A stretch of DNA of 64,000 nucleotides from an uncultured Pseudomonadota bacterium (lineage in GTDB: Bacteria > Pseudomonadota > Gammaproteobacteria > Burkholderiales > Thiobacillaceae): positions 34,410-98,409 of the forward strand of contig CAILNT010000114.1 of NCBI GenBank assembly GCA_903835655.1, given 5' to 3'. Below are positions 4,710 to 62,095 of the stretch, piece after piece (positions within the stretch are counted from its first letter, which is position 1; each line of letters starts with the position of its first letter). The translations under genes and the position numbers were made by a program. The notes under the pieces were generated by a model. The model made no database searches and was not told where the DNA came from. It saw nothing but the letters and a program-made list of their open reading frames with translations.

Positions 4710-4746
4710 GGGGTGCGTCAACAGGAAGGGCTTACCGCTTAAGTTG

Positions 4747-6580: not shown

Positions 6581-6841
6581 CCCATTCTGATTTGCCTATG
6601 GCTTCGCTATGTCCCGCAACCTGTTGATGGTCTCTGTCGGGGACCATTCCGTGTGTCTTTGCTTTCGCAGCCAAGAGGACAGGTTTTTCGCGCTGCGCTC
6701 GAAATCGATGGTCGGGAATTCAGGCGGCGTTTCAGATGCCATTCCGCACGCCTTTATGGTGCGCCCTCAACAGGATGCCCACCACAGGCCGGTGAAGGTG
6801 TCCGGCTTTTCCCGCCGTCGCGGTAGGGGCGGCTTGCTCGG

Positions 6842-7270
6842 CTAGACCACCACCACTTCCACCCGCTTGCCCAGGGCGTGCAAGGCGCGTTCCAGGGTGG
6901 GCACCTTGGTCGAATGCTTCGGGTCCAGGATGCGGCGGGCTTCCTTTTCGTCCAGGTCCATGCGCCGGGCCAGGTCGGACTTGCTGAGGCCTTGTTCCTT
7001 CATGGCCAGGTAGACCGCCGCTTTCATGGCGCTGCCCACCGGCAGGCAGGCCAGGCGCTCGCCCTTGCGGGCCTTGCTGGGCAGGGGGATTTCCAGGCCG
7101 TCTTCGATGCGCATCTCGATGGCGGCTTCCAGGGCGCCTTCGGCGGCTACGATGGCGGCTTCCAGGGTGTCGCCCTGGGTGATGGCTTCGGGAAGGTCGC
7201 GGCAGGTGACGACGAAGCCCCCATCCGCCACATCGGCGGCGAGGGTGACGGGGTAAGCGAAGCGTTGCAT
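6842..7270 (-). CDS. hicB: HicB-family antitoxin with a C-terminal HTH
   Basis: N-terminal HicB fold (YPVTLAADVADGGFVVTCRDLPEAITQGDTLEAA) and a C-terminal Xre-like HTH (GLSKSDLARRMDLDEKEARRIL). AGGAG RBS. Lies 8 nt after hicA. Confidence 0.85.
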   Translation of the reverse strand: MQRFAYPVTLAADVADGGFVVTCRDLPEAITQGDTLEAAIVAAEGALEAAIEMRIEDGLEIPLPSKARKGERLACLPVGSAMKAAVYLAMKEQGLSKSDLARRMDLDEKEARRILDPKHSTKVPTLERALHALGKRVEVVVV

Positions 7271-32051: not shown

Positions 32052-32645
32052 TTACCGTGCCCCCTTCGCCAGGTCCATCACCACCCGCGCCACGTCGGCG
32101 ATGCGCGTCCTGTGTGTCATGGCTTCGCGGCGCAGGGCCTGGTAGGCGGCTTCTTCCGAGATGCTTTCCCGTTTCATGAGATAGCGCTTGGCCTGCTCGA
32201 TCAGCTTGTGCTCCTGCAACTCCTGGCGCGCGCGCACGGCATCTTCGCGCATCGCCTGCCAGGCTTCGAAGCGCACCTGGGCAAGTTGCAGCAGGGGCTG
32301 GATGCGTTCGCTCTCCAATCCGTTCACCACATAGCAGGACACTCCGGCCGAGACCGCGCGACGCATGGCGTCGGTCGACCCGTCCTGGCTGAACATGACG
32401 ATGGGACGCGGGCTCTTTTCGCTCATCACCACCACCTGCTCCAGCGTGTCGCGGCTGGGGGATTCGGTGTCCATGATGATGGCGTCCGGCTCCAGTTCCT
32501 CCACCCAGGCGGGCAGGTCGATGGCACGGTCGAGGCGGCCGACCAGGCGGTGTTCCGGAGCGTTTTCCGCCAGCGCCTCCATGAGGTTGTCCAGGCGCCG
32601 GCGCGAGGGACTGACGATCAGGACGGTGAGACCGGTGGTCATCAT
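32052..32645 (-). CDS. nasT: Response-regulator receiver / ANTAR antiterminator (NasT/AmiR type)
   Basis: Receiver domain followed by ANTAR (IEQAKRYLMKRESISEEAAYQALRREAMTHRTRIADVA). ATGA overlap with the nasA stop. Confidence 0.85.
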   Translation of the reverse strand: MMTTGLTVLIVSPSRRRLDNLMEALAENAPEHRLVGRLDRAIDLPAWVEELEPDAIIMDTESPSRDTLEQVVVMSEKSPRPIVMFSQDGSTDAMRRAVSAGVSCYVVNGLESERIQPLLQLAQVRFEAWQAMREDAVRARQELQEHKLIEQAKRYLMKRESISEEAAYQALRREAMTHRTRIADVARVVMDLAKGAR

Positions 32646-35356
32646 GCCGTAAGCATTTTTTTCAATTCGGGGATGCAGGAACCGCAATTGCTTCCTGCTT
32701 TCAGGGCGACGCCCAAAGCTTCCACCGATGTGGCACCCGCGGCAATGGCCTGCCTCAAGTCGCGTTCACCGACGCCGAAACAGGCACAGACGACGCGGCC
32801 GCGGTCCGGCATCGCGTGAGCGGGCTGGCCCAGTAGCAGGGCATCGAGTTCGCCTTCGCCGAGCCGTTCGCGCTCGAATAGCGATTCCAGCCAGTGGCGC
32901 GGCGGCAAGCACGCCGCTTCGCGTTCCAGGAAATACACGGCCAGCAGACGGCCGTGCCGGATCAGCGCACCGCGGTAGCGACCCGCGGCGCTGTCTTTCA
33001 TTTCCATCCAGTCGCCGGAAAATTCGAGCAGCTCGCGCATCCGCGGCGGCAGACCGGCACCGGCAAGCTCATATCGCCAGCAGGCCCGCGCGCGTATCTT
33101 GGCCCAATAAGCGGACCCGTGGATGGGTTCCCTGCCGCAGTCCAGCGCTTCTCGCGTCATGAGGTAGCCATGCCAGCCGGCAATGTAAGCTTCCACCGCC
33201 ACCGGGGTCTGCTTGAATTCGGGTTGCCCGGAGATCGGGTCGGTGACGGCATGGATCAGTGCGCCGACGCGACCCAGGCCGGTGAACTGGCCGCTCCAGT
33301 GGATGGGTACGAACACGCTGCCCATCCTTTGCTCACGGCTCGCCCGCACGCGCAGCAGCATTTCGCCGTTGCCGTTCCGCACCCGCGCCAGCGCACCGTC
33401 CTCGAGCCCGGTGCGGTGTGCATCCTGGGGGTGGATTTCCAGATAGGGCTGGTCGATATGCGCCAGCAGTTTCGCCGCCTTGGCCGTGCGCGTCATGCTG
33501 TGCCACTGGTCGCGGATGCGTCCGGTGTTGAGGGTGTAGGGGTGTTCGGTGCTGACCGCGTGAGCCGGCGGACGCGGCGCGATGGCCAGCATGCGGGCGC
33601 GCCCGCCTGGCGTGTAGAAACGGCCGTCGGCGAACAAACGCGCCGTGCCGCCGGCGGCCGTGACCGGCCATTGCACGGGTTGCAGATCGTCATACCAGGT
33701 CTCGCCCTCTCCCGCCGAGAGAGGCTTGGGGCGGGGGAGCAGGCCGGAAAGATCGAAGTCGCGGGTACCATGGTTCTCGAAGCCGGACAGCGCGACGTGC
33801 TCGGCGAAGATCGCCGCCGGTCCGTCATGGGCGAAGTGTTCGCCAAACCCCAGTCGCCGCGCCACGGCATTCACGATCCACCAGTCCGGGCGCGCCTCGC
33901 CAGGTAGAGGCAGAAAAGCGCGGCTGCGCGAGATGCGGCGCTCCGAGTTGGTCACCGTGCCTTCCTTCTCGCCCCAGGCCGCGGCGGGCAGACGGACGTG
34001 GGCGAGGACGCTGGTGTCGGTGTGGGCGACGACTTCGGAGACCACCACGAAGGGGCAAGTCTTCAGGGCCTCCGCGACGCGGTCGGCCTCGGGCAGGCTC
34101 ACCACCGGGTTGGTCGCCATGATCCAGATCGCCTTGATGCGGCCCTCGGCCACGGCCTGGAACATTTCGACCGCCTTGAGGCCGGGCCGTCGCGCCATGC
34201 TCGCCGCGCCCCAGAAGCGGCCGACGCGGTCCACGTCCTGCGCGCCGAAATCCATGTGCGCGGCGAGCTGGTTGGCCAGCCCGCCCACCTCGCGCCCACC
34301 CATCGCGTTGGGCTGGCCGGTGATGGAGAAGGGCGCGGCTCCCGGCTTGCCGATGCGACCCGTGGCGAGGTGGACGTTGAGTACGCTGTTGACCTTGTCC
34401 ACGCCGGAGGAAGACTGGTTGATGCCCTGGGAGAAGAGCGTCACGGTCCTGGGCGTGTGCGTGTAGAGACGGAAGAATTCGGCCACGTCCTCCTGCGTCA
34501 GGCCGCAATGCCCGGCCACCTGCGCGATGGACAGGCCGCTGACCGCTTCCAGGGCGGCGCCGAAATCCTCGACATGGGCCTCGAGATAGCGCCAGTCCAG
34601 GGCATCCTGGCACTTGAGGTGATTGAGCAGACCGTTGAACAGCCAGGCATCGGTCCCGGGCTGGATGCTCAGGCGCAGATCGGCGAGATCACCGGTCGCG
34701 GTGTTGCGCGGATCGATCACCACCACGCGCATGCCGGGCCGCGCTTGCTTCGCCGCGACCAGGCGCTGGTAGGCCACGGGATGCGTCCAGGCGGTGTTGG
34801 CGCCGACCAGCACCACCAGGTCGGCCAGTTCCAGATCCTCGTAGCAACCTGGCACGGCGTCGCAACCGAAGGCGCGCTTGTGGCCGGCCACGGCCGAGGA
34901 CATGCACAGGCGCGAGTTGGTGTCGATGTTGCCAGAACCGATGTAACCCTTCATCAACTTGTTGGCGACATAGTAGTCCTCGGTCAGCAACTGGCCGGAT
35001 ACATAGAAGGCCACGGCATCGGGCCCATGTTCTTCCATGACTCGGCGGAAGCGAAGGGCAACGGTGTCGAGTGCCTCCTCCCAGCTGGCGCGCTTCCCCT
35101 CGACTTCGGGGTAGAGCAGGCGCCCTTCCAGATCCAGGGTTTCGCCCAGGGCTGCGCCCTTGGAGCACAGCCGCCCCAGGTTGGCCGGGTGTTCGGGGTC
35201 GCCGCGCACGCTCCAGCGCGGTGTTCTCCCCGTAGCTGAAGGGGGAGAGTCGGGCAAGGGGCTGACTAGCACGCCACAGCCGACGCCGCAGTAGGGGCAG
35301 GTGGTACGGACGGGCGAGAGCGAGGTCGCCGCTCCCAGGGTAACGGAATCAGGCAT
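32642..35356 (-). CDS. nasA: Assimilatory nitrate reductase catalytic subunit (molybdopterin) with a C-terminal BFD-like [2Fe-2S] domain
   Basis: TTCPYCGVGCG 4Fe-4S motif, MopB domains, and a C-terminal CACFGVGERDL...GSNCGSCIPEL. The start at MPDSVT overlaps the nirD stop. Confidence 0.9.
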   Translation of the reverse strand: MPDSVTLGAATSLSPVRTTCPYCGVGCGVLVSPLPDSPPSATGRTPRWSVRGDPEHPANLGRLCSKGAALGETLDLEGRLLYPEVEGKRASWEEALDTVALRFRRVMEEHGPDAVAFYVSGQLLTEDYYVANKLMKGYIGSGNIDTNSRLCMSSAVAGHKRAFGCDAVPGCYEDLELADLVVLVGANTAWTHPVAYQRLVAAKQARPGMRVVVIDPRNTATGDLADLRLSIQPGTDAWLFNGLLNHLKCQDALDWRYLEAHVEDFGAALEAVSGLSIAQVAGHCGLTQEDVAEFFRLYTHTPRTVTLFSQGINQSSSGVDKVNSVLNVHLATGRIGKPGAAPFSITGQPNAMGGREVGGLANQLAAHMDFGAQDVDRVGRFWGAASMARRPGLKAVEMFQAVAEGRIKAIWIMATNPVVSLPEADRVAEALKTCPFVVVSEVVAHTDTSVLAHVRLPAAAWGEKEGTVTNSERRISRSRAFLPLPGEARPDWWIVNAVARRLGFGEHFAHDGPAAIFAEHVALSGFENHGTRDFDLSGLLPRPKPLSAGEGETWYDDLQPVQWPVTAAGGTARLFADGRFYTPGGRARMLAIAPRPPAHAVSTEHPYTLNTGRIRDQWHSMTRTAKAAKLLAHIDQPYLEIHPQDAHRTGLEDGALARVRNGNGEMLLRVRASREQRMGSVFVPIHWSGQFTGLGRVGALIHAVTDPISGQPEFKQTPVAVEAYIAGWHGYLMTREALDCGREPIHGSAYWAKIRARACWRYELAGAGLPPRMRELLEFSGDWMEMKDSAAGRYRGALIRHGRLLAVYFLEREAACLPPRHWLESLFERERLGEGELDALLLGQPAHAMPDRGRVVCACFGVGERDLRQAIAAGATSVEALGVALKAGSNCGSCIPELKKMLTA

Positions 35357-35693
35357 GCGCGCACGCTTCGTCACGGGTGAGAGAAATGCTGACCATCCCT
35401 TCCCGCAGCCGCACGGGGTAGCTTGCGGCGCAGCCGACATCGGGGGCTGCGGCCAGCCCGGTCTCGAGGTGGATCTTCCAGTCGTGCAGGGGGCAGGCGA
35501 CCTTCCCGCCGTGGACGATGCCCTGCGACAGTGGGCCGCCCTTGTGCGGGCAGCGGTCGGCGAGTGCGAAGAGCGCGTCGTCGACCGTGCGAAACAGCGC
35601 GATGTCGCCGCGGGCGGTCTTGATGACCCGCGCGCCCTGGCGGGGGATGTCCGAGAGGGGGCCGATTTCGAGCCAGTTTTCGTTGTGCGTCAT
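35349..35693 (-). CDS. nirD: Nitrite reductase small subunit (Rieske-like)
   Basis: W.EIGPLSDIP..GARV......DIALFR......FALADRCPHKGGPLSQGIV.G..V.CPLH.W. Confidence 0.9.
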   Translation of the reverse strand: MTHNENWLEIGPLSDIPRQGARVIKTARGDIALFRTVDDALFALADRCPHKGGPLSQGIVHGGKVACPLHDWKIHLETGLAAAPDVGCAASYPVRLREGMVSISLTRDEACAHA

Positions 35694-35773
35694 GAAGTGG
35701 TTTCCTTTCGTTGTTCCGTAATTCACGCCAATTGCCTTTCGACACCGATCAAATGAACGCCCCGAATACCTGT

Positions 35774-38440
35774 TTACGCGGCAATGACGGCCATGGGCGT
35801 GAACTCATGCCGCTGCCCGCCTTGGCCGCGTTCCTTCCACGGGTCTACCTGGGCGGTCTTCTGCGAGGCCAGGAAGCGTTCCGCCAGCAGCGCCCGATAG
35901 ACCGCGTCCTCCACCACCTTCGCCTTGATGTGGGCCAGACCCACCCGTTCCACCCAGGGCGCGGTACGTTCCAGGTAATGCCCCTCCTCGCGGTAGAGTT
36001 GGGCGAAAGCGGCGGTGTATTGCATCACCTGTTCTTCCGTTTCCACCTTGGTGAGCAAGTCGGTGATGCGCACCTTGATGCCACCGTTACCGCCGACATG
36101 GAGTTCGTAGCCGGAATCGACGCAGACGATGCCGAAATCCTTGATGGTCGCCTCGGCGCAATTGCGTGGGCAGCCGGACACGGCCAGCTTGTATTTGTGG
36201 GGCATCCACGAGCCCCAGGTCATCTGCTCCAGCTTGACGCCCAGGCCGGTGGAGTCCTGGGTGCCGAAGCGGCACCACTTGGCGCCGACACAGGTTTTTA
36301 CCGTGCGCAGCGCCTTGCCGTAGGCATGGCCCGAGACAAAGCCGGCGTCGGACAGGTCTTTCCATACTGCGGGCAGGTCTTCTTTCTTGATGCCGAACAA
36401 ATCGATGCGCTGCCCCCCGGTGACCTTCATCTCCGGCACCTGGAATTTCTCCGCGACATCGGCAATGGCGCGCAATTCTTTCGGGTTGGTGAGGCCGCCC
36501 CACATGCGCGGCACGACGGAGAAACTGCCATCCTTCTGGATATTGCCGTGGGCGCGTTCGTTGATGTAGCGCGACTGGGCATCGTCGACGTATTCGTCAG
36601 GCCAGGCGCAAAGCAGATAGTAATTGAGCGCGGGGCGGCATTTGGCGCAGCCGTCCGGCGTATTCCAGTCCATGAAGCGCATGGTTTCCGGCACGGTTTT
36701 CAGCCGGTTTTCGCGAATGGCGCCGCGAATCTCGTCATGGGTGTACTCGGTGCAGCCGCACAGCGGCTTCTTCGAGGGGGCAACCGAGTAATCGCCGCCG
36801 ACCGTCGCCGCCAGGATGGTCTCCACCAGGCCGGTACACGAACCGCAGGAGCCAGAGGCCTTGGTATGCGCGCGCACCTCGTCCAGGGTAAACAGTTTCT
36901 TCTCGCGCACCGCCCGGATGATGTCGCCCTTGCACACGCCGTTGCAGCCGCAGATCTCGGCCGTGTCGGGCAGCGACATCACGCGCAGCTTCTCATCGCC
37001 GCCCGCGCCGCCGCCGGCTCCCGAATCGCCGAGGTGATGGCGGCCGAAGAGCAGCTTGTCGCGGAAGTCCGCTACGTTGGTGCCATCGCGCATCAACTCG
37101 AAGTACCAGGCGCCGTCCAGGGTGTCGCCATAGAGCACGCCGCCCACCAGACGATTGTCCTTGAGCACCAGTTTCTTGTAGGCGCCGCGCCCCGCGTCCT
37201 GAAACACGATTTCCTCATGGTCTTCGCCACCCAGGAATTGACCGGCGGAGAACAAGTCGATGCCCGTGACCTTCAGCTTGGTCGAGGTCATGGAACCCTG
37301 GTAGCGGGCCACGCCGTGTTCCGCCAGGTGATTGGCGCAGACTTTCGCCTGATCGAACAGCGGGGCCACCAGGCCGTAAGCGATGCCACGATGGCTGACG
37401 CACTCGCCCACCGCGTAGATGCGCGGGTCATAGGTTTGCATGGTGTCGTCGACCACCACGCCCCGGTTGCAATGGAGGCCGGCGGATTCGGCCAGCCGTG
37501 TGTTGGGCCGGATGCCGACGGCCATGACCACCAGATCGGCGGGGATTTCCGAGCCATCGTTGAAGCGGAGTGCGGCGACGCGGGGTGAGGGGAAATCCCC
37601 CCCGCCCCCCCTTTGGGAAAGGGGGGAGTCGGTCTCTCCATTTGATGGAAGGGGGGCGTCGATCTCCCCCTTTGATCGAGGGGGGGAGTCGGTCTCTCCA
37701 TTTGATGGAAGGGGGGCGTCGATCTCCCCCTTTGATCGAGGGGGGGAGTCGATCCCCCCCTTTATCAAAGGGGGGGTAGGGGGGATTCCTGTGGTTGGCA
37801 GCAGCTCCGCCGTCTGCTTCTTCAGAAAAAACTTCAGCCCCTTGTCTTCCAGGCTCCGCTGCAACAGAAGCGAGGCCGGTTCGTCCAGTTGTCGATCGAG
37901 CAGGTGGCCGCCTAGGTGCACCACGGAAACGTCCATACCGCGAAGCGCGAGGCCGTTGGCGGCTTCCAGGCCGAGCAGGCCGCCGCCGATCACCACCGCA
38001 TGCCGGTATCGCCCGGAAGCGGCGATCATCGCGTCGACGTCGGCGATGTCGCGAAAGCTGACCACGCCGGGCAAGTCGGCCCCGGGGATGGGCAGGATGA
38101 AGGGACTGGAGCCGGTCGCCAGGAGCAGGCGGTCGTACTCCGCACGACTGCCATCCTCGGCTTCCACGAAACGCTGCTTGCGCTCGATCTTCACCACGCG
38201 CTTGCCGGTATGCAAGGTGATGCCGCGCTGTGCATACCAGTCGCGCGGATTCAGGATGATCTGATCCAGCGCCTGTTCGCCGGCCAGCACCGGCGAGAGC
38301 ATGATGCGGTTGTAATTGGGATGAGGCTCATCACCGAAGACGGTGATGTCGTAGAGATCGGGCGCGGCTTTCAGCAACTCCTCCAGGGTGCGCATCCCGG
38401 CCATGCCGTTGCCCACGAGTACCAGTTTCATGCGTGTCAT
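35774..38440 (-). CDS. nirB: NAD(P)H-dependent assimilatory nitrite reductase large subunit, carrying an in-frame repeat-element insertion
   Basis: MKLVLVGNGMAGMRT FAD motif, VVIGGGLLGLEAA NAD motif, a BFD-like domain (CGCNGVCKGDI) and a siroheme/4Fe-4S C-terminus (SGCPRNCAEA). AGGAAG RBS before ATG 38440. The frame stays open through the repeat element at 37591-37789. Confidence 0.9.
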   Translation of the reverse strand: MTRMKLVLVGNGMAGMRTLEELLKAAPDLYDITVFGDEPHPNYNRIMLSPVLAGEQALDQIILNPRDWYAQRGITLHTGKRVVKIERKQRFVEAEDGSRAEYDRLLLATGSSPFILPIPGADLPGVVSFRDIADVDAMIAASGRYRHAVVIGGGLLGLEAANGLALRGMDVSVVHLGGHLLDRQLDEPASLLLQRSLEDKGLKFFLKKQTAELLPTTGIPPTPPLIKGGIDSPPRSKGEIDAPLPSNGETDSPPRSKGEIDAPLPSNGETDSPLSQRGGGGDFPSPRVAALRFNDGSEIPADLVVMAVGIRPNTRLAESAGLHCNRGVVVDDTMQTYDPRIYAVGECVSHRGIAYGLVAPLFDQAKVCANHLAEHGVARYQGSMTSTKLKVTGIDLFSAGQFLGGEDHEEIVFQDAGRGAYKKLVLKDNRLVGGVLYGDTLDGAWYFELMRDGTNVADFRDKLLFGRHHLGDSGAGGGAGGDEKLRVMSLPDTAEICGCNGVCKGDIIRAVREKKLFTLDEVRAHTKASGSCGSCTGLVETILAATVGGDYSVAPSKKPLCGCTEYTHDEIRGAIRENRLKTVPETMRFMDWNTPDGCAKCRPALNYYLLCAWPDEYVDDAQSRYINERAHGNIQKDGSFSVVPRMWGGLTNPKELRAIADVAEKFQVPEMKVTGGQRIDLFGIKKEDLPAVWKDLSDAGFVSGHAYGKALRTVKTCVGAKWCRFGTQDSTGLGVKLEQMTWGSWMPHKYKLAVSGCPRNCAEATIKDFGIVCVDSGYELHVGGNGGIKVRITDLLTKVETEEQVMQYTAAFAQLYREEGHYLERTAPWVERVGLAHIKAKVVEDAVYRALLAERFLASQKTAQVDPWKERGQGGQRHEFTPMAVIAA
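37591..37789. repeat. About 200-bp palindromic MITE/REP-like element with about 36-bp terminal inverted repeats and an exact 60-bp tandem duplication, inside nirB
   Basis: 37621-37680 and 37681-37740 are identical. The 30-bp module is GGGGGGNGTCGRTCTCYCCMTTTGATSGAR. Left end GGAAATCCCCCCCGCCCCCCCTTTGGGAAAGGGGGG versus the reverse complement of the right end GGAATCCCCCCTACCCCCCCTTTGATAAAGGGGGGG. Confidence 0.85.
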
Positions 38441-46463: not shown

Positions 46464-47014
46464 TTCTGGCTATTTTTCAGGAGGGGCGTGACCAGGGCTT
46501 CCAGGCGGGCTTGCGCGACCGCGCCGGTGATGGCGGTGACGGCGCGGCCCTGGCGGTCGAACACCAGGGTGTAAGGCAGGCCGCCCATGTTGTTGCCGAC
46601 AGCCAGACTCAGGCGCATGACATCGCCACCACCGAGTAGCACCGGATAGTTGATGCCGACCTGGTTGGCGTAGGCGCCCGCCTTGTCGGCTTCGTCCAGG
46701 GCGATGCCGACGAATTGCAGACCGCGCGCGCCGTATTGCCTCTGCAAGGCGATGAAGCCCGGGATTTCCCGGCGGCAGGGCGGGCACCAGGGCGCCCAGA
46801 AGTTGACCACCACGACCCGACCCAGCCACTGCGTCAAGGGCTGGGGCCGGTGGGCGAGATCCGGCAGTTTACTGCCCCAGAATTCGGCCTGGCGGACGTT
46901 CGGCGGTGGCGCGATCAGCGGTTCCGGAGGGGCGATGCGCTGTGAGATCAGGCCGGCGCCGCCGAACGCCAGCGCGATCACGATCAGAGGCAGCATGCCC
47001 GGGCGTGTGCCCAT
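46460..47014 (-). CDS. TlpA-family periplasmic thiol:disulfide oxidoreductase
   Basis: A TM anchor plus NFWAPWCPPCRREIP thioredoxin motif. TGATG overlap with the dsbD stop. Confidence 0.85.
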   Translation of the reverse strand: MGTRPGMLPLIVIALAFGGAGLISQRIAPPEPLIAPPPNVRQAEFWGSKLPDLAHRPQPLTQWLGRVVVVNFWAPWCPPCRREIPGFIALQRQYGARGLQFVGIALDEADKAGAYANQVGINYPVLLGGGDVMRLSLAVGNNMGGLPYTLVFDRQGRAVTAITGAVAQARLEALVTPLLKNSQN

Positions 47015-49284
47015 CAGCGCATGGCCTTATCCATACTTTGCAGGAATTTTTCGGGCGGCTCGTAGCCGATTACGCGGTATGCGCTTTCCTGGCCGGTCTT
47101 GTCGAAGAAGATCATGCCAGGCGGGCCGAACAGCTTGAAGCGGGCCAGCATGGCGCGGTCGTCGGCCGTGTTGGCGGTGACGTCGGCCTGAAGCAATAGC
47201 ATGCCTTTCAGGCGCGCCGCGACACGGGCGTCGGCGAAGCTGTCGCGTGCCATCTCCTTGCACGACACGCACCAGTCTGCATAGAAGTCCAGCATCACCG
47301 CGCGAGGCGCTGCACCGCGGAGCGCCGCGTCGAGTTCGGCCAGGTTCTTCACCCGCTGGAAGACCGGATGCACCTCCATCGTGGCCGCCCCAGCGGCGCC
47401 GCCCTTGAAGACGGCCAGCGGTTGCAGGAGGTCGCGGCCGCCGCCCAATGCGCCCAGCAGCAGCGCGATCCCGGTCACCAGACTGATCAGGCCTGCGCCT
47501 TTCCAGAAGCGGCTCCAGCCGCCGGCACCCGGGGCCAGAGGGTCCACGGCCTTGAGATAGACGCCGGAGTTCATCAGCAAGGCGGCCCACAGGAACATCT
47601 GCAGAAGTTCCGAGAGCAGCGGCGAGACCAGCCAGACCGCCACTGCCAGCAAGGCTACGCCAAAGAATTTCTTCACCGCTTCCATCCAGGCGCCGGCACG
47701 CGGCAGCAGGGCGCCGGCGGAGAGTCCAACTAGCAGCAGGGGTACGCCCATCCCCAAAGCCAGGGAGAACAGGGAAACCCCGCCCAGCACCACGTCTCCG
47801 GTCTGGCTGATATAGAGCAGCGCGCCGGCCAGGGGCGCGGCCACACAGGGGCCGATGATCAGCGCGGAGATGATGCCCATGAGGAACACGCCGGCGAAAT
47901 GCCCGCCTTTCATGCGGTTGCTCGCCTCGGTGAAGCGGCTCTGCAAAAAACTGGGCAGTTGCAGTTCGTAAAAACCGAACATGGAAAAGGCCAGCAGTAC
48001 GAAGATGGCGGCCCCTGTGCCCAAGGCCCAGGGATTCTGCAAGGCATTGGAAATCAGCGTGCCGGACAGCCCCGCCGCCACGCCGGCCAAGGCGTAGGTG
48101 AATGCCATCCCCAGGACATAGGCCAGAGACAGGAGAAAGCCCTTGCGCTTGGTGATGCCCGTACCCTGGCCCACGATGATGCCGGAGAGGATGGGGATCA
48201 TCGGGAAGACGCAGGGCGTAAGCGAGAGCAGGAGGCCGAAGCCGAAGAAACTGACCACGACCAGCCAGTAATTGCCGCCCTCGAGCAGCGCGGTGATCCG
48301 GCCGGAGTCGGAGCGGTCCACCGGGCGCGCGGCGACCCGGCCGGAGTCGGGGTGCTCCACCGGAAGTATGGCGACCCGGCCCGAGTCGGAGTGCTCCACC
48401 GGGCGCGTGGCGGCCACGGGCTTGGCGGTGGCGGCGGGCAGGGTCAGGCTCAGTTCCCGTTCCAGCGGCGGATAGCAGATGCCTTTCTCGCTGCATCCCT
48501 GATATTCGACGTTCAGCTTGATGGGCCCGCCTTGCGGCAGGCCGGCCAGTTTCACCACGGCGGTGAAGGTGTGGTGATAGATATGCATCTTGCCGAAGGC
48601 GGGATCGATCTTTTCGTCGGCTACGGGCAGATCCATGCCTGCCAGCGTCACCCCCTTGGGCTGGATGACCCGGAACTTGAGTTTGTCGCGATACAGGTAA
48701 TAGCCCGGGGCAATGTTGTAGCGCGCTTCCAGCGTGCCGTCCGGACGCGCTTGCAGTTCCAGCTTGAAGGCTGCTTCGGGTGAGAGAAATTCGGGTTCGC
48801 TCGTGCCGATCAGGTTGCCGGCCAGTGCCTTCAATCGGGCGAGCGCGGCCGAACTCTGTTGCTGCAAGGGTTGCGCCGGTTTCAGCGCCGCCACGCCCTG
48901 CTGCGGTGGGTAGCACACGCCGGCATCGGCGCAGCCCTGGAACTCGGCCTTGAGGTTGAATGCCCGCGGCACGCCGTCGGGATAGGTCAGGGGGATGCGA
49001 AAACTCAACGGGCCGCGATAGATCTCGCTGCGGCCGGCATACTCATCGTCCAGAATCTGACCGGCCGGCAGTTCCGGCGTCCCCAGTTTCACGCTTGCAT
49101 CGGCGCTGAACTTGAGCTTGTTCCTGGACAAATGATAGCCTTTGGCGATCTGGAACCGCACCTGCGCGCCGTTCGCGTCGGCCAGACTGGCCGAATAGAC
49201 GAAGGCCTTTTCCGGTTCCAGCAGATCCTCCTCGGCATGGGCGAGTGTGGCGAACAGGAACAGCAGGGCGAAGAAGAAACGCAT
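47014..49284 (-). CDS. dsbD: Thiol:disulfide interchange protein DsbD with two tandem N-terminal (nDsbD) domains
   Basis: Two nDsbD-like modules, each with a Cys pair (FQGCADAGVCYPP; YQGCSEKGICYPP). They are followed by the TM core (LTPCVFPMIP ... IGPCVAAPL) and a C-terminal thioredoxin (YADWCVSCKE). Confidence 0.9.
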   Translation of the reverse strand: MRFFFALLFLFATLAHAEEDLLEPEKAFVYSASLADANGAQVRFQIAKGYHLSRNKLKFSADASVKLGTPELPAGQILDDEYAGRSEIYRGPLSFRIPLTYPDGVPRAFNLKAEFQGCADAGVCYPPQQGVAALKPAQPLQQQSSAALARLKALAGNLIGTSEPEFLSPEAAFKLELQARPDGTLEARYNIAPGYYLYRDKLKFRVIQPKGVTLAGMDLPVADEKIDPAFGKMHIYHHTFTAVVKLAGLPQGGPIKLNVEYQGCSEKGICYPPLERELSLTLPAATAKPVAATRPVEHSDSGRVAILPVEHPDSGRVAARPVDRSDSGRITALLEGGNYWLVVVSFFGFGLLLSLTPCVFPMIPILSGIIVGQGTGITKRKGFLLSLAYVLGMAFTYALAGVAAGLSGTLISNALQNPWALGTGAAIFVLLAFSMFGFYELQLPSFLQSRFTEASNRMKGGHFAGVFLMGIISALIIGPCVAAPLAGALLYISQTGDVVLGGVSLFSLALGMGVPLLLVGLSAGALLPRAGAWMEAVKKFFGVALLAVAVWLVSPLLSELLQMFLWAALLMNSGVYLKAVDPLAPGAGGWSRFWKGAGLISLVTGIALLLGALGGGRDLLQPLAVFKGGAAGAATMEVHPVFQRVKNLAELDAALRGAAPRAVMLDFYADWCVSCKEMARDSFADARVAARLKGMLLLQADVTANTADDRAMLARFKLFGPPGMIFFDKTGQESAYRVIGYEPPEKFLQSMDKAMR
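48291..48410. repeat. 39-bp (13-aa) tandem repeat x3 in the DsbD periplasmic linker
   Basis: GCCGGAGTCGG-type cores start at 48301, 48340 and 48379. They encode PVEHSDSGRVAIL / PVEHPDSGRVAAR / PVDRSDSGRITAL. Confidence 0.8.
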
Positions 49285-58898: not shown

Positions 58899-60131
58899 TC
58901 AGTCGCAAGTGGCGTGCCTTGAGCCCTTGCCCAACAGCCACCGATGCACCAGCCAGCCAGACAGGATACACAGGGCCATGATCGTCGCCATGGGGGCCAG
59001 GCGCGGGCTTTGACTGACACCCATGGCCATGCCGGCCAGTGTGGCCAGGCCGAACTGCAAGGCGCCGATGAGGGCCGAGGCGGTGCCAGCCCTCTGGCCG
59101 TGGGTGGCGAGCGCGGCAGCGTTGGCATTGGGCAGGATGAACCCCAGGCTGGAGATGATCACCAGCAGCAGGGGCAGCGCCAGCCACAACGGCGGCAGTG
59201 GCATGAAGGCGGTGAGCGCCGCCAGGGCGAGGGCGGCCAGCGTGATGGCGCGCATGCCCCGGCGTAGTACGCGGGTCGGCTGCATGGTCTTCATGAGACG
59301 GGCGTTGAGCTGGCTGGCGGCGATGAAGCCGAAGGCGTTGCCGCCGAACACCAGGCCATAGTGTTTGGCCGGGATGCCGTAGAGATCGATCAGGACGTGC
59401 GGCGAACCGGCCAGATAGGTGAAGAAGCCGGCCATTGCCAGGCCCGAAGAAAGCGAATAGCCCATGAAAGCGGGCTCGCGCAGCAGGCCGAGATAGTCGC
59501 GAAAGCTGCGTAGCCAGTTGAGTGGCTGGGCATGACGGGTGTCGTGGCTTTCCGCCAAACCAAAGTGCATGGCCAGCAGGCAGATTACACCGAAGCCGGC
59601 CAGCAGCCAGAAGATCGCCCGCCAGCCCAGATGTGCGACCACCCAGCCGCCGGCCAGAGGCGCGAGGATGGGCGCGATGCCCATCACCAGCATGAGCATG
59701 GAGAAGGCCCGCGCCGAGTCGCGCACGTCGCAGCGGTCACGTACCACCGCACGGGTAATGACGATGCCGGCACAACCGCCCAGTGCCTGGATGAAGCGCC
59801 ACGTCGCCAGGCTGATGAGGTCGCCTGCCAGCGCCCCGCCAAGCGAGGCAAGGCTGTAGAGCAGCAGTCCGACATAGAGCGGCGGCTTGCGGCCAAAGCG
59901 GTCGCTGATGGGGCCGTAGACCAGTTGGCCGATGGCCATACCGACGAAGTAGCTCGCCAGCGTGTACTCCGGTCGCCCTGGCTGATGCGCGAATTCGCTC
60001 GCCATGGCGGGAAAGGCCGGCAAATACATGTCGATGGACAAGGGACCGATGGCGATGAGGCCACCGAGCAGGGTCAGCCATCCGGGCAGGTTGGTAAGAC
60101 GGGGTGTGGGTTGGGAGCTGAGACGGGGCAT
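58899..60131 (-). CDS. MFS drug-efflux transporter, Bcr/CflA subfamily
   Basis: GPLSIDMYLPAFPAM......., GPISDRFGRKPP and 12 TM helices. The start is at MPRLSS. Confidence 0.85.
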   Translation of the reverse strand: MPRLSSQPTPRLTNLPGWLTLLGGLIAIGPLSIDMYLPAFPAMASEFAHQPGRPEYTLASYFVGMAIGQLVYGPISDRFGRKPPLYVGLLLYSLASLGGALAGDLISLATWRFIQALGGCAGIVITRAVVRDRCDVRDSARAFSMLMLVMGIAPILAPLAGGWVVAHLGWRAIFWLLAGFGVICLLAMHFGLAESHDTRHAQPLNWLRSFRDYLGLLREPAFMGYSLSSGLAMAGFFTYLAGSPHVLIDLYGIPAKHYGLVFGGNAFGFIAASQLNARLMKTMQPTRVLRRGMRAITLAALALAALTAFMPLPPLWLALPLLLVIISSLGFILPNANAAALATHGQRAGTASALIGALQFGLATLAGMAMGVSQSPRLAPMATIMALCILSGWLVHRWLLGKGSRHATCD

Positions 60132-60293
60132 GGTTAGAGTCGGATTATCAGGCGCGCGCGCTGCATTCGCTCGCGTTGCCGCTGGATAAATCCGATTTCG
60201 CGCGCATCCGCGCGGCTCTTGAGCGATTGCGAACGACCTCTCGCTAGGGTTCATTGACTAGGTAGCCGCTGATCTATTCGATTTCGTTCATGG

Positions 60294-60352
60294 TTCGACA
60301 GGCTCACCACAAACGGAATCAATGGGTTGCCGTTCGTCCTGAGCTTGTCGAA
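60294..60352. repeat. Imperfect 23-bp-arm palindromic REP-like element
   Basis: TTCGACAGGCTCACCACAAACGG-n13-CCGTTCGTCCTGAGCTTGTCGAA has 19 of 23 arm positions complementary. It translates as ..PFVLSLSKD / VRPELVEG.., peptide strings I recall from spurious repeat-derived ORFs in proteobacteria. Confidence 0.6.
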
Positions 60353-60723
60353 GGATTTAATCAGTGGTTACCTAGCTGACCGAGTTGCCTGCCATGGTGA
60401 CCATGGCCGATCAGGAACCAGTACGAGTGCATGCAAACCGCCCTGTTCCGCATACGTGCGAACGGCAAGCGAGTTCCCTTCTGCCGGCCTCCAAACCCGG
60501 ACGCCCTGGAGCAAGACGCGATGGACAACCCAAGAGTTCGCATTCTACGGTGTCGGTATTTTTTACATAGGGTCTCGTTGCCGATGACAAAATCAAGCCA
60601 TATCATTATAAATTCAATTACTTAAAACATGTGGCGCGATTCTTGCCTAGTGTGCTACACGTTATTGAAAAATAACGCAAACTGATGCTGTCGCGAACCA
60701 TTTTTAATAGTTGGAGGCCGATA

Positions 60724-61371
60724 ATGATCACGAAACAACTACATAATTTCTTGCTCGCCGTGGGTATCATTGCATCGAGTATTGGGCAGGCACACGCAAC
60801 CACCAGCGGGTCCACCTATGATCTGACTCTGACAGGGGATACGAACAGTGTTTACACGGATTCTTATCTAAACGGTGGTGACAAAATTGATTTGTGGTAC
60901 TTAAATTTAAGCGGGCTTGATAACACCAATCCAATTGCGGTATCGATTTCAGATACGATCAATGTAACCGTTAATTTTAATCACGGCGCCACCATTCCGT
61001 CGTCGCTCACACGTACCAGTTTTTCCCTATGGTTGTCTGGATCGGAATTCCCTGTCATCGATACAGGCACTTCTGGAACTGTGACTTTTTTCAATAATGG
61101 CCTACCTGGACTATCAGCAACGACTGGTTGTAGCACATCAAGTTCGTTAGTCGCTTGCGCCGATTTCTACCCTCCAAACAACGCCATAACGTTCGATAAG
61201 CTTATGTATACGTTTACGATCACCAAGCTTGGTACCGCGCCCGACCAGAGCGTAACCTTGGACGGATCAAACATTGTGTTCCAGGGTATTAGTCCTGCCG
61301 TGCCGGAACCCGATACCTACACGATGATGTTCGCCGGCCTGGGTTTGTTGGGCTGGATGGTACGGCGGTAA
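60724..61371 (+). CDS. PEP-CTERM sorting-domain protein, in low-GC DNA
   Basis: Has a signal peptide and a Ser/Thr/Asn-rich body. The C-terminal VPEPDTYTMMFAGLGLLGWMVRR is a PEP motif plus TM helix plus basic tail. GGAGG RBS. Confidence 0.85.
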   Translation: MITKQLHNFLLAVGIIASSIGQAHATTSGSTYDLTLTGDTNSVYTDSYLNGGDKIDLWYLNLSGLDNTNPIAVSISDTINVTVNFNHGATIPSSLTRTSFSLWLSGSEFPVIDTGTSGTVTFFNNGLPGLSATTGCSTSSSLVACADFYPPNNAITFDKLMYTFTITKLGTAPDQSVTLDGSNIVFQGISPAVPEPDTYTMMFAGLGLLGWMVRR

Positions 61372-61451
61372 CCGATAACCACGCGGCGTTCTTCCCATTG
61401 CCTGGCAGATGAAGAGAATGCCTCCCATGTCAACAGGGCGTGGGGTGCGGA

Positions 61452-61754
61452 ATGGAAACGGGTCGGAAGAAGCGGCGTAGCCGGGACGAGTGGCGGGCGC
61501 TGTTGCGGCGCTTCGAGGAAAGCGGTTTGAGTCTGGCGGCGTTTTGTCGGGCGGATGCTTTCAGCGTGGCGAGTGTTCAGCGCTGGCGCGGTCTGCTCGG
61601 TCACCGCGTCGGGCAGGATGTCCAGCAGATCGAGGCGGCCAAGCCAGCCTTCGTCGATCTCGGCGCGTTGCCGCTGGCGGGCAGTCAACCCGCGCGTTTC
61701 GAGTTGACGCTCGACCTGGGTAGCGGCCTGGTACTCTACCTGGTGCGTGGCTGA
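61452..61754 (+). CDS. tnpA: IS66-family accessory protein TnpA (OrfA)
   Basis: RRSRDEWRALLRRFEESGLSLAAFCRADAFSVASVQRWR matches the IS66 OrfA HTH pattern. Confidence 0.85.
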   Translation: METGRKKRRSRDEWRALLRRFEESGLSLAAFCRADAFSVASVQRWRGLLGHRVGQDVQQIEAAKPAFVDLGALPLAGSQPARFELTLDLGSGLVLYLVRG

Positions 61755-62095
61755 TGTTCTTCCCCGAGGGCCAGATTCGGGTTCACCTCTATGGTCAGCC
61801 GGTGGACATGCGCAAGTCCTTCGATGGCCTCTACGCGCTTACACGCCATGGTTTGCAACAGGACCCGCTCTCTGGCCATCTCTTCGTCTTCATCAATCGA
61901 CGCGCCACGCAGATGAAGGTGCTCTATTGGGATCGCACCGGCTTCTGTATCTGGGCAAAGAGACTGGAATCTGGGCGATTCCTTTCCAATTGGCAGACCA
62001 TCGGCAATAGCGTCATGGATTGGACTGGATTGAAATTGATGCTCGAAGGGATCGTGCCGGAGCGTAAAAAGAAACGTTATCAATTACCCGCCTAA
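61754..62095 (+). CDS. tnpB: IS66-family accessory protein TnpB (OrfB)
   Basis: VDMRKSFDGLYALTRHGLQQDPLSGHLFVFINRRATQMKVLYWDRTGFCIWAKRLE is the highly conserved IS66 OrfB signature. Confidence 0.9.
   Translation: MFFPEGQIRVHLYGQPVDMRKSFDGLYALTRHGLQQDPLSGHLFVFINRRATQMKVLYWDRTGFCIWAKRLESGRFLSNWQTIGNSVMDWTGLKLMLEGIVPERKKKRYQLPA

What the first reader, a model, noticed from the sequence alone, without database searches (positions are those of the whole stretch)
37591..37789. About 200-bp palindromic MITE/REP-like element inserted in frame inside nirB
A block of about 200 bp made of a 30-bp G/C-homopolymer palindromic module (GGGGGGNGTCGRTCTCYCCMTTTGATSGAR) lies within the nirB coding sequence. 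The block has terminal inverted repeats of about 36 bp: 37591-37626 matches the reverse complement of 37754-37789. The nirB frame stays open and gains ..PTTGIPPTPPLIKGGIDSPPRSKGEIDAPLPSNGETDSPPRSKGEIDAPLPSNGETDSPLSQRGGGGDFPSPRVAA... In E. coli NirB as I recall it (..NTLEIVQEGVEARKTMRFADGSELEVD..) the equivalent loop is only about 10 residues, so roughly 66 residues are extra. They sit in the NAD(P)H-binding region between conserved ..QTAELL.. and ..LRFNDGSEIPADLVVMAVGIRP... The ORF track shows the block is stop-free in at least four reading frames: nirB, 37288..37701(-), 37440..38264(+) and 37570..37779(+). That property is expected of selfish palindromic DNA that survives inside genes, as described for Rickettsia palindromic elements. 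I am not aware of this being described for assimilatory nitrite reductase.
Basis: partly seen in the sequence, partly recalled or inferred. Interest (0 to 1): 0.8.

Follow-up and report, generated by a model that had tools for sequence, protein, structure and literature searches.

The report
Palindromic repeat inserted in nirB
A 195-base hairpin-forming repeat sits in frame inside a nitrite-reductase gene and adds 65 probably floppy residues; it belongs to a palindrome family found across many bacterial phyla that, in other genomes, brackets a small DUF559 nuclease gene.

Summary
The repeat block is real. It occupies window 37593-37787 (195 nt, 65 codons) inside an intact nirB (35774-38440, minus strand) in a nirB-nirD-nasA operon. 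About 100 of 115 relatives scored have a 9-residue loop at this site.

- **Mobile unit.** The dispersed unit is not the 30-nt module. It is the two ~34-nt termini, which are copies of a palindrome (AATC6-NN-C6TTT-NNN-AAAG6-NN-G6ATT). This palindrome occurs in at least 120 metagenome contigs and 106 viral contigs.
- **Shared insertion.** A related MAG (L002) has the same two-hairpin insertion at the same nirB codon but lacks the internal 120 nt. The window's array is therefore a local in-frame tandem expansion, and its last step is a perfect 60-nt duplication.
- **Reading frames.** Only three frames are fully open, which is what base composition alone predicts.

Family copies are mostly intergenic, but Pfam confirms in-frame copies in at least eight other genes (chorismate synthase, MurB, TatD and others). 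All ten genes examined from one conserved DUF559 (Vsr-like nuclease) subfamily are bracketed by these hairpins, whereas no RAYT gene is linked to them. I found no published description.

Verdict: a Rickettsia-RPE-like in-frame palindrome from a probably undescribed, nuclease-associated repeat family.

The parts
35774..38440 (-). nirB coding sequence (888 aa, start MTRMKLVLVGNG), the host gene. It is intact and about 86% identical to proteins that sources name NirB.
   Evidence: ORF and translation. Pfam finds Pyr_redox_2 (split into two stretches by the insert), Rubredoxin_C, Fer2_BFD, NIR_SIR_ferr and NIR_SIR. Homologues.
37593..37787 (.). The whole inserted palindromic element: 195 nt, 65 codons, NirB residues 219-283 (IPPTPPLIKGG...SQRGGGGDF).
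   Evidence: Repeat and inverted-repeat analysis. Folds. Absent from insert-free orthologues. Residue range.
37593..37626 (+). Left terminal hairpin unit, AAATC7-G-C7TTT-GGG-AAAG6. It is a member of the dispersed palindrome family.
   Evidence: Unit pattern match at 37595-37626, with 0 expected by chance. Alignment of six units. Family listing.
37754..37787 (-). Right terminal hairpin unit (on the + strand: C7TTT-ATC-AAAG7-TA-G6ATT), the inverted partner of the left unit.
   Evidence: Unit pattern match at 37755-37786 on the minus strand. Alignment.
37621..37680 (.). First copy of the 60-nt (20-codon) tandem unit. Each unit is two diverged 30-nt hairpin-plus-spacer modules.
   Evidence: TRF period 60, 100% matches. 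These 120 nt (37621-37740) are exactly the gap in the alignment with L002's nirB.
37681..37740 (.). Second, identical copy of the 60-nt tandem unit (a recent in-frame duplication).
   Evidence: TRF, module matches, alignment with L002.
37741..37753 (.). G-run plus the spacer AGTCGAT that joins the two hairpins. The spacer is shared with L002's shorter form.
   Evidence: Alignment of window and L002. Sequences.
35349..35726 (-). nirD (Rieske-type small subunit), operon context showing the locus is intact.
   Evidence: ORF. Pfam Rieske and Rieske_2.
32642..35440 (-). nasA (assimilatory nitrate reductase), operon context. It lacks the two family units that L002's nasA carries.
   Evidence: Pfam Molybdop_Fe4S4, Molybdopterin, Molydop_binding and Fer2_BFD. 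BLASTP against L002 NasA shows the gaps. L002 units.

Best explanation
The block is a gene-less copy of a widespread hairpin-palindrome family. The canonical 42-nt form is AATC6-NN-C6TTT-NNN-AAAG6-NN-G6ATT, and a common long form has two inner hairpins.

**Shown:**
- A two-hairpin copy (about 78 nt, roughly 25 codons) sits in frame in the turn between two beta-strands of NirB's NAD(P)H-binding domain. It is at the identical position in the window and in the MAG L002.
- In the window's lineage it grew by tandem duplication of the 30-nt hairpin-plus-spacer module. Every step was a multiple of three. The last step was a 60-nt duplication whose two copies are still identical.
- Family copies occur in frame inside other real genes in unrelated organisms.
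- In other organisms the same hairpins bracket a conserved DUF559 (Vsr-like, PD-(D/E)XK-fold) nuclease gene.

**Inferred:**
- The insertion happened once, in a shared ancestor of the window's organism and L002.
- The array grew by replication slippage between the repeated hairpins.
- The insertion persists because C/G runs plus TTT/AAA seldom create stops, its length is a multiple of three, and the acceptor loop is exposed and length-variable. It would then be tolerated as a disordered 65-residue loop rather than serving NirB.
- The DUF559 nuclease, or host repair acting on the hairpins, spreads the gene-less copies. This would parallel how RAYT transposases are thought to spread REP/REPIN repeats.
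For: **Family membership**
- Both termini match the unit pattern, with 0 matches expected by chance in the window.
- Copies share features the pattern did not demand: an A before ATC, the symmetric G6ATT partner, and the two-hairpin long form.

**Insertion rather than ancestral loop**
- About 100 of 115 scored NirB relatives have a 9-residue loop.
- Insert-free relatives L128 and L129 show a clean empty site.
- L002 carries the two-hairpin form at the identical codon position, with identical loop triplets (GGG, ATC) and spacer (AGTCGAT). These positions vary among other family copies.
- L002's nasA holds two more units in another reading frame, and the window's NasA lacks them.

**Local expansion**
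- The 120 nt missing from L002 are exactly the two perfect 60-nt copies.

**Tolerated loop**
- The AlphaFold model gives pLDDT below 50 and no secondary structure for residues 218-283, between strands 210-215 and 288-293.
- PDB relatives align up to residue 212 and resume at 299.
- Pfam's Pyr_redox_2 match is split by the insert, and the insert peptide matches no family.
- The same loop holds an unrelated hairpin repeat (CCCTCTCCCGC-AAGC-GGGGGAGGG) in other NirB lineages. That repeat also occurs intergenically on the same contigs.

**In-frame copies elsewhere**
- Pfam domains lie on both sides of, or enclose, the motif in chorismate synthase, TatD, radical SAM, a NuoG-like protein, a GT4 glycosyltransferase, MurB, GH57 and a pterin/B12 methyltransferase. 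A ninth host, a Proton_antipo_M protein, carries it after its last domain.

**Nuclease link**
- 5 of 120 motif-selected loci have a DUF559 gene (Pfam E about 1e-35) abutting the motif.
- There are 21 hairpins within 260 nt of these 10 genes and none in the other 27.4 kb of the same loci.
- No RAYT homologue occurs in the window or in the motif loci.
- Vsr/DUF559-like domains are known or predicted homing endonucleases (PMC2677866, PMC3424549, PMC9403480).
Against: - No second copy of the family and no DUF559 gene occur in this 64-kb window. Six related nirB loci of 4-18 kb hold no copy either. Mobility within this lineage is therefore not shown.
- No target-site duplication is visible.
- None of 80 fetched viral loci has a DUF559 gene. 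The nuclease link runs one way: every gene examined has hairpins, but few hairpins have a gene. No activity has been tested.
- The shared 25 codons of the element are 93% identical between window and L002, and 24 of 25 third positions match. The rest of the gene is 83% identical, with 66% at third positions. My binomial estimate from those numbers is p about 4e-4. This points to nucleotide-level constraint or to a younger age than the gene split, neither of which a purely neutral passenger explains.
- The NirB tree is unresolved: window plus L002 are sisters in only 58 of 300 bootstraps. Two independent insertions at one site cannot be excluded.
- The structure model is poor overall (mean pLDDT 61).
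Confidence: 0.7

Rival explanations
1. The element has a function at the nucleic-acid level in this operon. Examples would be an mRNA hairpin that slows translation or sets transcript stability, or a protein-binding palindrome. It would then be kept by selection, not merely tolerated. This is not exclusive of a mobile origin.
For: - 24 of 25 third codon positions are conserved between window and L002, against 66% in the rest of nirB.
- The predicted mRNA structure is very stable: -113 kcal/mol, z = -5.0.
- The C6, G6, TTT and AAA blocks are conserved across hosts of 34-72% GC.
- In L002 both nirB and nasA of the same operon carry units.
Against: - Most NirB orthologues, including close ones, work without it.
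- The window's nasA lacks the units.
- The internal modules have partly lost their C-runs, for example CTCTCC, so the structure is not uniformly maintained.
- Family copies sit in many unrelated genes and intergenic sites with no common theme.
Confidence: 0.15
2. It is a classical REP/REPIN doublet spread by a RAYT (Y1 HUH) transposase, like the repeats of Pseudomonas or E. coli.
For: - Two short palindromic units lie in inverted orientation.
- The family is mostly intergenic.
- A RAYT-like Y1_Tnp gene lies 3.7 kb from nirB in a relative, L127.
Against: - No RAYT homologue occurs in the window or in any of the 120 motif-selected loci.
- The L127 RAYT gene has no hairpin of either family in its immediate flanks.
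- The unit ends in AAT/ATT and has no conserved GTAG or CGTC tag (the tag criterion is from PMC3733652).
- The gene actually bracketed by these hairpins is DUF559.
Confidence: 0.05
3. It arose locally. On this view it is a lineage-specific, low-complexity expansion of a hypervariable loop by slippage, and the resemblance to dispersed palindromes is coincidental.
For: - The loop varies in length in many NirB lineages, from 7 to 37 residues between the two anchor motifs.
- The internal 120 nt did arise by local tandem duplication.
- There is only one site in 64 kb.
Against: - The termini match a 24-specified-base pattern with 0 expected by chance.
- They share the two-hairpin architecture with unrelated contigs.
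- L002's nasA carries further units in another reading frame.
Confidence: 0.05
4. The number of internal modules, or the perfect 60-nt duplication, is an assembly artefact of a collapsed or expanded repeat.
For: The two 60-nt copies are 100% identical, and hairpin-rich G/C homopolymer DNA is hard to sequence and assemble. No reads are available.
Against: - The insertion itself is confirmed by an independent assembly from another organism (L002).
- The array keeps the reading frame of a gene that is otherwise 86% conserved.
- The older 30-nt modules have diverged (82% matches), as expected of real history.
Confidence: 0.08

Closest known systems
Rickettsia palindromic elements (RPEs; Ogata et al. 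2000 and 2002, as reviewed in PMC10969869)
   Same: Both are palindromic repeats inserted in frame into unrelated, conserved protein-coding genes. The host reading frame is kept and a peptide is added at a position compatible with the fold. Copies also occur between genes.
   Different: - RPEs are about 100-150 bp, fall into ten peptide-defined families and are reported from Rickettsia.
- This family has a 42-nt core (78 nt in the two-hairpin form) built of C6/G6 runs, and it is found in hosts of 34-72% GC from several phyla.
- Only a minority of its copies are intragenic (at most about 30 of 128).
- It has a candidate partner gene (DUF559). The review read here names no partner gene for RPEs.
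REP/REPIN repeats and their RAYT transposases
   Same: Both involve short G+C-rich hairpins, often as inverted doublets, that are mostly intergenic. A small gene is bracketed by inverted copies of the repeat, and most copies are solo.
   Different: - The bracketed gene is a DUF559 (Vsr-like PD-(D/E)XK) nuclease, not a Y1 HUH transposase.
- There is no GTAG or CGTC tag.
- The same repeat sequence is shared across phyla. From my own knowledge, REP sequences are usually species-specific.
- Copy density in this lineage is low: one site in 64 kb.
Bacterial MITEs that fuse in frame with host ORFs (intragenic ERIC elements, BOX, QMITE1 of Coxiella, Anabaena MITEs; PMC10969869)
   Same: Both are small, carry terminal inverted repeats, encode no transposase, can sit inside genes as in-frame fusions, and show presence/absence polymorphism between relatives.
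   Different: No target-site duplication is visible and no parent insertion sequence with matching ends was found. The element is itself almost entirely a hairpin, and here it has been enlarged by internal tandem duplication.
Free-standing Vsr-like / EDxHD homing endonuclease genes (Dassa et al. 2009, PMC2677866; I-Bth0305I, cited in PMC3424549 and PMC9403480)
   Same: The partner gene belongs to the same nuclease superfamily group (Vsr, DUF559, DUF2726). It is small and free-standing, and has hairpins just upstream of its start codon, as those authors reported for 15 of 16 endonuclease 5' untranslated regions.
   Different: - Those genes sit inside split inteins or group I introns, mostly in phage, and their hairpins were read as gene-control elements.
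- Here the gene lies between housekeeping genes and has matching inverted hairpins on both sides.
- The hairpins also exist as many gene-less copies.
- No homing target is known.

Membership tests
NirB, large subunit of assimilatory NAD(P)H nitrite reductase (host gene) | Domain series Pyr_redox_2 / Rubredoxin_C / Fer2_BFD / NIR_SIR_ferr / NIR_SIR | tested here: met
   Pfam scan of the window's 888-aa protein, all above curated cut-offs.
NirB, large subunit of assimilatory NAD(P)H nitrite reductase (host gene) | Operon with the Rieske-type small subunit NirD and the assimilatory nitrate reductase NasA | tested here: met
   nirD at 35349-35726 and nasA at 32642-35440 lie on the same strand directly downstream. 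Relatives have the same order.
Rickettsia palindromic elements (RPE) | Palindromic repeat inserted in frame in conserved protein-coding genes with the ORF preserved | tested here: met
   nirB stays open. The same holds in L002's nirB and nasA. Eight other host genes with domains around the motif were confirmed by Pfam.
Rickettsia palindromic elements (RPE) | Insert lies at a surface position compatible with the host protein's fold | tested here: inconclusive
   The model shows a disordered segment between two strands, and PDB relatives skip it. However, the model's mean pLDDT is only 61.
Rickettsia palindromic elements (RPE) | About 100-150 bp elements of the RPE-1 to RPE-10 peptide families, in Rickettsia | tested here: not met
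   The core unit is 42 nt, or 78 nt in the two-hairpin form. The nearest NirB proteins carry the names Thiobacillus, Hydrogenophilales and Parasulfuritortus.
REP / REPIN with RAYT | Short (20-40 nt) imperfect palindromes, often as inverted doublets | tested here: met
   Unit alignment and inverted arrangement.
REP / REPIN with RAYT | Conserved GTAG or CGTC tetranucleotide at one end of the palindrome (PMC3733652) | tested here: not met
   Read from the 173 listed copies: the ends are AAT...ATT with no conserved tag. CGTC occurs only in two internal modules of the window's array.
REP / REPIN with RAYT | A RAYT (Y1_Tnp) gene flanked by the repeats | tested here: not met
   tblastn with a RAYT-like protein found nothing significant in the window or the motif loci. 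The bracketed gene is DUF559.
REP / REPIN with RAYT | Tens to hundreds of copies per genome | not testable with these tools
   Only 64 kb of the source genome is available, and it holds one site. L002's 8 kb holds two sites.
MITE | Terminal inverted repeats and small size without a transposase gene | tested here: met
   Inverted termini of about 34 nt in an element of 195 nt.
MITE | Target-site duplication flanking the element | tested here: not met
   Filled sites (window, L002) compared with empty sites (L128, L129) show no direct repeat at the junctions.
MITE | A parent insertion sequence with matching ends and a transposase | tested here: not met
   Clustering of ORFs near 120 copies found no recurrent transposase. 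The only recurrent abutting gene is DUF559.
DUF559 / Vsr-like free-standing (homing-type) endonuclease cassette (candidate partner) | The partner protein matches PF04480 | tested here: met
   E = 1e-35 to 1e-34, at about 120 bits against a cut-off of 20.6. 5,615 homologues were found, the top 120 at 63-100% identity.
DUF559 / Vsr-like free-standing (homing-type) endonuclease cassette (candidate partner) | The gene is specifically bracketed by the palindrome family | tested here: met
   10 of 10 genes, 5 of them chosen without reference to the motif. Density is 4.3 hairpins per kb near the gene against 0 in 27.4 kb elsewhere.
DUF559 / Vsr-like free-standing (homing-type) endonuclease cassette (candidate partner) | A partner gene is present in the genome that carries the nirB insert | tested here: inconclusive
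   There is none in the 64-kb window or in L002's 8 kb. The rest of both genomes is not available.
DUF559 / Vsr-like free-standing (homing-type) endonuclease cassette (candidate partner) | The nuclease recognises or cuts the palindrome and promotes its copying | not testable with these tools
   This needs biochemistry and genetics.

The most novel reading that the evidence does not exclude
The nirB insert is a gene-less member of an undescribed, cross-phylum mobile system. The system would consist of a conserved 115-aa DUF559 (Vsr-like) nuclease gene bracketed by inverted C6TTT/AAAG6 hairpins. Its solo palindromes would spread, by the nuclease or by repair of its breaks, into intergenic DNA and in frame into loops of housekeeping enzymes. 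This would be a counterpart of the REP-RAYT system that uses a different nuclease fold, and a general source of RPE-like 'protein-coding palindromes' outside Rickettsia.
Probability: 0.35. Interest if true: 0.8.

Novelty: new variant of a known kind. Interest (0 to 1): 0.6.

Why it matters
- **Protein evolution.** In-frame palindromic insertions are best known from Rickettsia. This case shows the same thing in an assimilatory nitrite reductase of a probable betaproteobacterium. It also shows that the repeat family involved inserts in frame into at least eight other enzymes in unrelated organisms. Hairpin repeats may therefore be a general, under-noticed source of disordered loops in proteins.
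- **A permissive site.** The same NirB loop has accepted two unrelated repeat families in different lineages, which marks it as a tolerant acceptor site.
- **A testable partner.** One conserved DUF559 subfamily, widely spread across phyla and without a known role, is consistently bracketed by these palindromes. That gives a concrete hypothesis for what these nucleases do and for how such repeats move.
- **Annotation.** Such inserts split domain matches, create spurious overlapping ORFs and break assemblies.

Tried and rejected
- **Genome scan with the 30-nt module junction**. It gave 3 hits. Two (L001 Dyella, L003 Desulfobacterales) were single small hairpins unrelated to the element.
- **Rfam**. 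There were only generic long-hairpin matches to miRNA precursors, far below their gathering scores, so this is no known RNA family.
- **Literature searches on the motif strings**. These found only HIV polypurine-tract papers and tRNA att sites.
- **Search for 'DUF559'**. All 25 papers that hold the term mention it only a few times each; none of the 22 listed titles, and neither of the two passages I read, links it to repeats.
- **Recent transfer of a large nirB segment**, as an explanation for the element's high conservation. Rejected, because there is no tract of raised identity in the flanking coding sequence.
- **P0003's loop as a deletion remnant of the element.** This could not be tested because its DNA was not retrievable.
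- **The L127 RAYT gene as the source of the second hairpin family.** No hairpin of that family lies in its immediate flanks.
- **DUF559 adjacency in the viral set.** It was 0 of 80 loci.
- **First tree attempt.** It timed out and was redone with numpy distances.
- **Openness in several frames as a signature of selfish DNA.** Rejected by shuffling.


Full report
**1. The observation**

The block is present. Window 37591-37789 contains a 30-nt periodicity (5.3 copies, 82% matches). Nested in it is a 60-nt unit present 2.2 times at 100% identity (37621-37751). The two ends are imperfect inverted repeats. The block folds as one long hairpin, as DNA (-61.8 kcal/mol, z = -4.9) and on the mRNA strand (-113.4 kcal/mol, z = -5.0).

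The likely start is the ATG at 38440 (MTRMKLVLVGNG), giving an 888-aa protein. That protein has the full NirB domain set, and Pfam's Pyr_redox_2 match is split in two by the insert. nirD (35349-35726) and nasA (32642-35440) follow on the same strand, so the operon is intact. Refined limits of the element are 37593-37787, which is 195 nt, 65 codons and residues 219-283.

One sub-claim fails. Only three of the six frames are fully open across the element. That is what composition predicts: 49% of dinucleotide shuffles and 50% of random 195-nt pieces of the window have at least three open frames.

**2. Orthologues**

Among the 120 best NirB relatives, complete proteins are 802-830 aa long. In about 100 of the 115 that could be scored, the segment between the QTAELV-type and KFKDG-type motifs is 9 residues (RGESGRVCA). 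It is 76 residues here. Two close insert-free relatives, L128 and L129, show a clean empty site at the DNA level.

**3. The same insertion in another organism**

A pattern scan of 596 Gb of representative genomes found one true relative: contig CAIXFP010000871.1 of an uncultured proteobacterium (L002). Its nirB is intact (847 aa). It carries the two termini and the spacer AGTCGAT at the identical position, three codons after ELLP and three codons before RV. It lacks exactly 120 nt, and those are the window's two perfect 60-nt copies. The internal array is therefore a local, in-frame tandem expansion. The 30-nt modules are diverged copies of the second hairpin plus spacer, and the most recent step duplicated 60 nt with no change since.

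**4. What the termini are**

Aligning the four nirB termini with two further units found inside L002's nasA gives the unit AATC6-NN-C6TTT-NNN-AAAG6. The nasA units are in a different reading frame, and the window's NasA lacks them. Host contigs range from 34 to 72% GC.

The copies share features the pattern did not require:
- They have an A before ATC.
- About half have the symmetric G6ATT partner, giving a 42-nt palindrome.
- A recurrent long form has two inner hairpins joined by 7-12 nt. This is the architecture of L002's nirB insert.

Rfam has no such family. Full-text searches for the motif strings found nothing relevant.

**5. Where copies sit**

Of 128 metagenomic sites, about 98 have no open frame extending at least 150 nt on both sides, so most are probably intergenic. 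For ten of the roughly 30 candidates I scanned the spanning ORF against Pfam. Nine are real genes. In eight of them, domains lie on both sides of the motif or enclose it:
- chorismate synthase
- TatD
- a radical-SAM enzyme
- a NuoG-like molybdopterin subunit
- a GT4 glycosyltransferase
- MurB, which carries two tandem units
- a GH57 branching enzyme
- a pterin/B12 methyltransferase

In the ninth, a Proton_antipo_M protein, the motif lies after the last domain. All three reading frames of the unit are used: IPPxPPLxKGG, NPPxPPFxKGG and SPLxxRG. This is the behaviour described for Rickettsia palindromic elements (PMC10969869), but in a different and far more widely spread repeat.

**6. A permissive loop**

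- The AlphaFold model is mediocre (mean pLDDT 61). It places residues 218-283 as an unstructured segment with pLDDT below 50, between strands 210-215 and 288-293.
- PDB relatives such as 1xhc align up to residue 212 and resume at 299.
- Other NirB lineages carry 13-37-residue P/S/T-then-G/E/R segments in the same loop.
- In the four relatives whose DNA I fetched, these segments are hairpins of an unrelated family, CCCTCTCCCGC-AAGC-GGGGGAGGG. That family also occurs intergenically on the same contigs.

The loop has therefore accepted two kinds of palindromic repeat in different lineages. The simplest reading is a selection filter: insertions survive where the protein tolerates them.

**7. One insertion or two?**

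By overall NirB identity, L002 (85.9%) is no closer to the window than several insert-free proteins (86.5-86.6%). L002 is closer to insert-free P0001 (89.2%). Neighbour-joining bootstraps do not resolve the matter: window plus L002 are sisters in 58 of 300 replicates, and no alternative is strongly supported.

The identical insertion point, loop triplets (GGG, ATC) and spacer argue for a single origin, because these positions vary freely among family copies. A single insertion with at most one later loss is compatible with the tree.

The 25 shared codons are 93% identical, and 24 of 25 third positions match. The rest of the gene is 83% identical, with 66% at third positions. My binomial estimate from those numbers is p about 4e-4. 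No flanking tract of raised identity exists. So the element is either constrained at the nucleotide level or younger than the gene split. I cannot decide between these, and this is the main unexplained point.

**8. A candidate partner**

I clustered ORFs around the 120 metagenomic copies. One recurrent abutting gene appeared: a 115-140-aa DUF559 protein (PF04480, E about 1e-35) in five loci. Each gene is bracketed by inverted units:
- AAT-C6TTTNNNAAAG6-NN-G6ATTT lies 9-22 nt before the start codon.
- AAATC6-NN-C6TTTNNNAAAG6 lies at the stop codon.

L002's nasA insert has this same arrangement with 31 nt in place of the gene.

As a test free of selection on the motif, I searched with one such protein. 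There were 5,615 homologues. The top 120 are 63-100% identical to the query, with source names from Planctomycetota, Nitrospirota, Syntrophales, Brocadiales and Omnitrophota, and many lie on roughly 1-kb contigs. All five are flanked by family hairpins. The test therefore covers one conserved DUF559 subfamily, not DUF559 as a whole.

Further points:
- There are 21 hairpins within 260 nt of the ten genes (4.3 per kb) and none in the remaining 27.4 kb of the same loci.
- Six of the 120 homologues have terminal extensions that read through the hairpin.
- No RAYT homologue is associated with the family.
- The Vsr/DUF559/DUF2726 group includes a group I intron homing endonuclease (PMC3424549).
- A Vsr-like free-standing homing endonuclease family with 5' hairpins has been predicted (PMC2677866).
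- A DUF559 gene has been assigned to the EDxHD homing endonuclease family (PMC9403480).

The link is one-directional. Only about 4% of metagenomic copies, and none of 80 viral loci, lie next to a DUF559 gene. Neither the window nor L002's 8 kb contains one.

**9. Most likely mechanism**

Shown:
- The termini belong to a dispersed palindrome family.
- The nirB and nasA sites show presence/absence polymorphism between relatives.
- The insertion is shared with L002, and the window's array is a later in-frame tandem expansion.
- Family copies occur in frame in other genes.
- In other genomes the hairpins bracket genes of a DUF559 subfamily.

Inferred:
- The insertion is tolerated as a disordered loop because it is stop-free, a multiple of three in length, and placed in an exposed and variable turn.
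- The array grows by replication slippage between hairpins.
- The DUF559 nuclease, or repair of breaks at the hairpins, spreads the solo copies.

**10. Comparison and novelty**

It works like an RPE and is organised like a REP/REPIN-RAYT system, but it is a member of neither:
- Length, sequence and host differ from RPEs.
- There is no GTAG or CGTC tag and no RAYT gene.
- It lacks the target-site duplication and parent insertion sequence of a MITE.

The phenomenon of in-frame palindromic DNA is known. This family, its breadth, its DUF559 association and its presence in nirB appear to be undescribed in the literature I could search. I rate it a new variant of a known kind.

**11. Limits**

- Only 64 kb of the source genome is available.
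- Intragenic counts rest on open-frame heuristics plus ten Pfam checks.
- The tree is distance-based.
- The structure model is weak.
- No reads, expression data or biochemistry exist.

Noticed in passing
L017 815-1165, L061 3170-3538, L086 5313-5666, L105 157-582, L107 2141-2518, L130 1501-1848, L131 1501-1848, L132 1501-1848, L239 1501-1857, L240 356-703: A conserved DUF559 (PF04480) nuclease gene of about 115 aa is bracketed on both sides by inverted copies of the C6TTT/AAAG6 hairpin family in every case examined. Five of the ten were chosen without reference to the motif. Hairpin density is 4.3 per kb near the gene and 0 in 27.4 kb elsewhere in the same loci.
   Followed up: partly
L002 5915-6030 (inside nasA, 4365-7118): The relative's nitrate reductase gene carries two more units of the family in frame (PPFEKGGRGGDL...KSPPAHLLQRGE). 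They are arranged hairpin - 31 nt - hairpin, like the flanks of a DUF559 cassette without the gene. The window's NasA lacks them.
   Followed up: yes
L124-L127, nirB loop (e.g. L127 6649-6673, L126 2125-2154); intergenic copies at L126 3963-3986 and L125 5129-5151: Other NirB lineages carry an unrelated hairpin repeat (CCCTCTCCCGC-AAGC-GGGGGAGGG) in the same loop. The same repeat occurs between genes on the same contigs, so the loop is a repeated acceptor of palindromic DNA.
   Followed up: partly
window 33705-33724 and 35225-35248 (both inside nasA, minus strand): The window's own NasA has short hairpins of the CTCTCC/GGAGAG type. One (CCTCTCTC-GGCG-GGAGAGGG) is at the site where L002 has its nasA insertion. 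The other (TCTCCCC-N10-GGGGAGA) coincides with a 10-residue insertion relative to L002 near the N-terminus. The stems are only 7-8 bp, so chance is not excluded.
   Followed up: partly
L127 1788-2318 (minus strand): A 176-aa Y1_Tnp (RAYT-like) gene lies 3.7 kb upstream of nirB in a relative. No hairpin of either family lies in its immediate flanks.
   Followed up: partly
L239 about 1945-2000: Downstream of the DUF559 gene there is a second copy of its 5' hairpin flank, followed by the first ~17 nt of the gene (ATGTTACCATATAACAA). This may be a remnant of a tandem or aborted cassette copy.
   Followed up: no
L101 4003-4125 and 6285-6407: Two similar segments about 2.3 kb apart each hold a pair of units on opposite strands, with similar flanking sequence. 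This suggests a duplicated region or paralogous genes carrying the element (frame IPPGPPLIKGG, as in nirB).
   Followed up: no
L133-L212 (IMG/VR contigs): The unit pattern occurs in 106 viral or proviral contigs, some with 2-3 copies. None of the 80 fetched has a DUF559 gene. These contigs are a possible route for the family's spread across phyla.
   Followed up: partly
window 48288-48412: A 39-nt tandem repeat (3.2 copies, 81% matches; 13 codons per unit) lies inside long overlapping ORFs (47014-49284, minus strand, and others).
   Followed up: no
window 60001-62000: G+C drops to 54% against 60-68% elsewhere in the window. This may be foreign or non-coding DNA.
   Followed up: no
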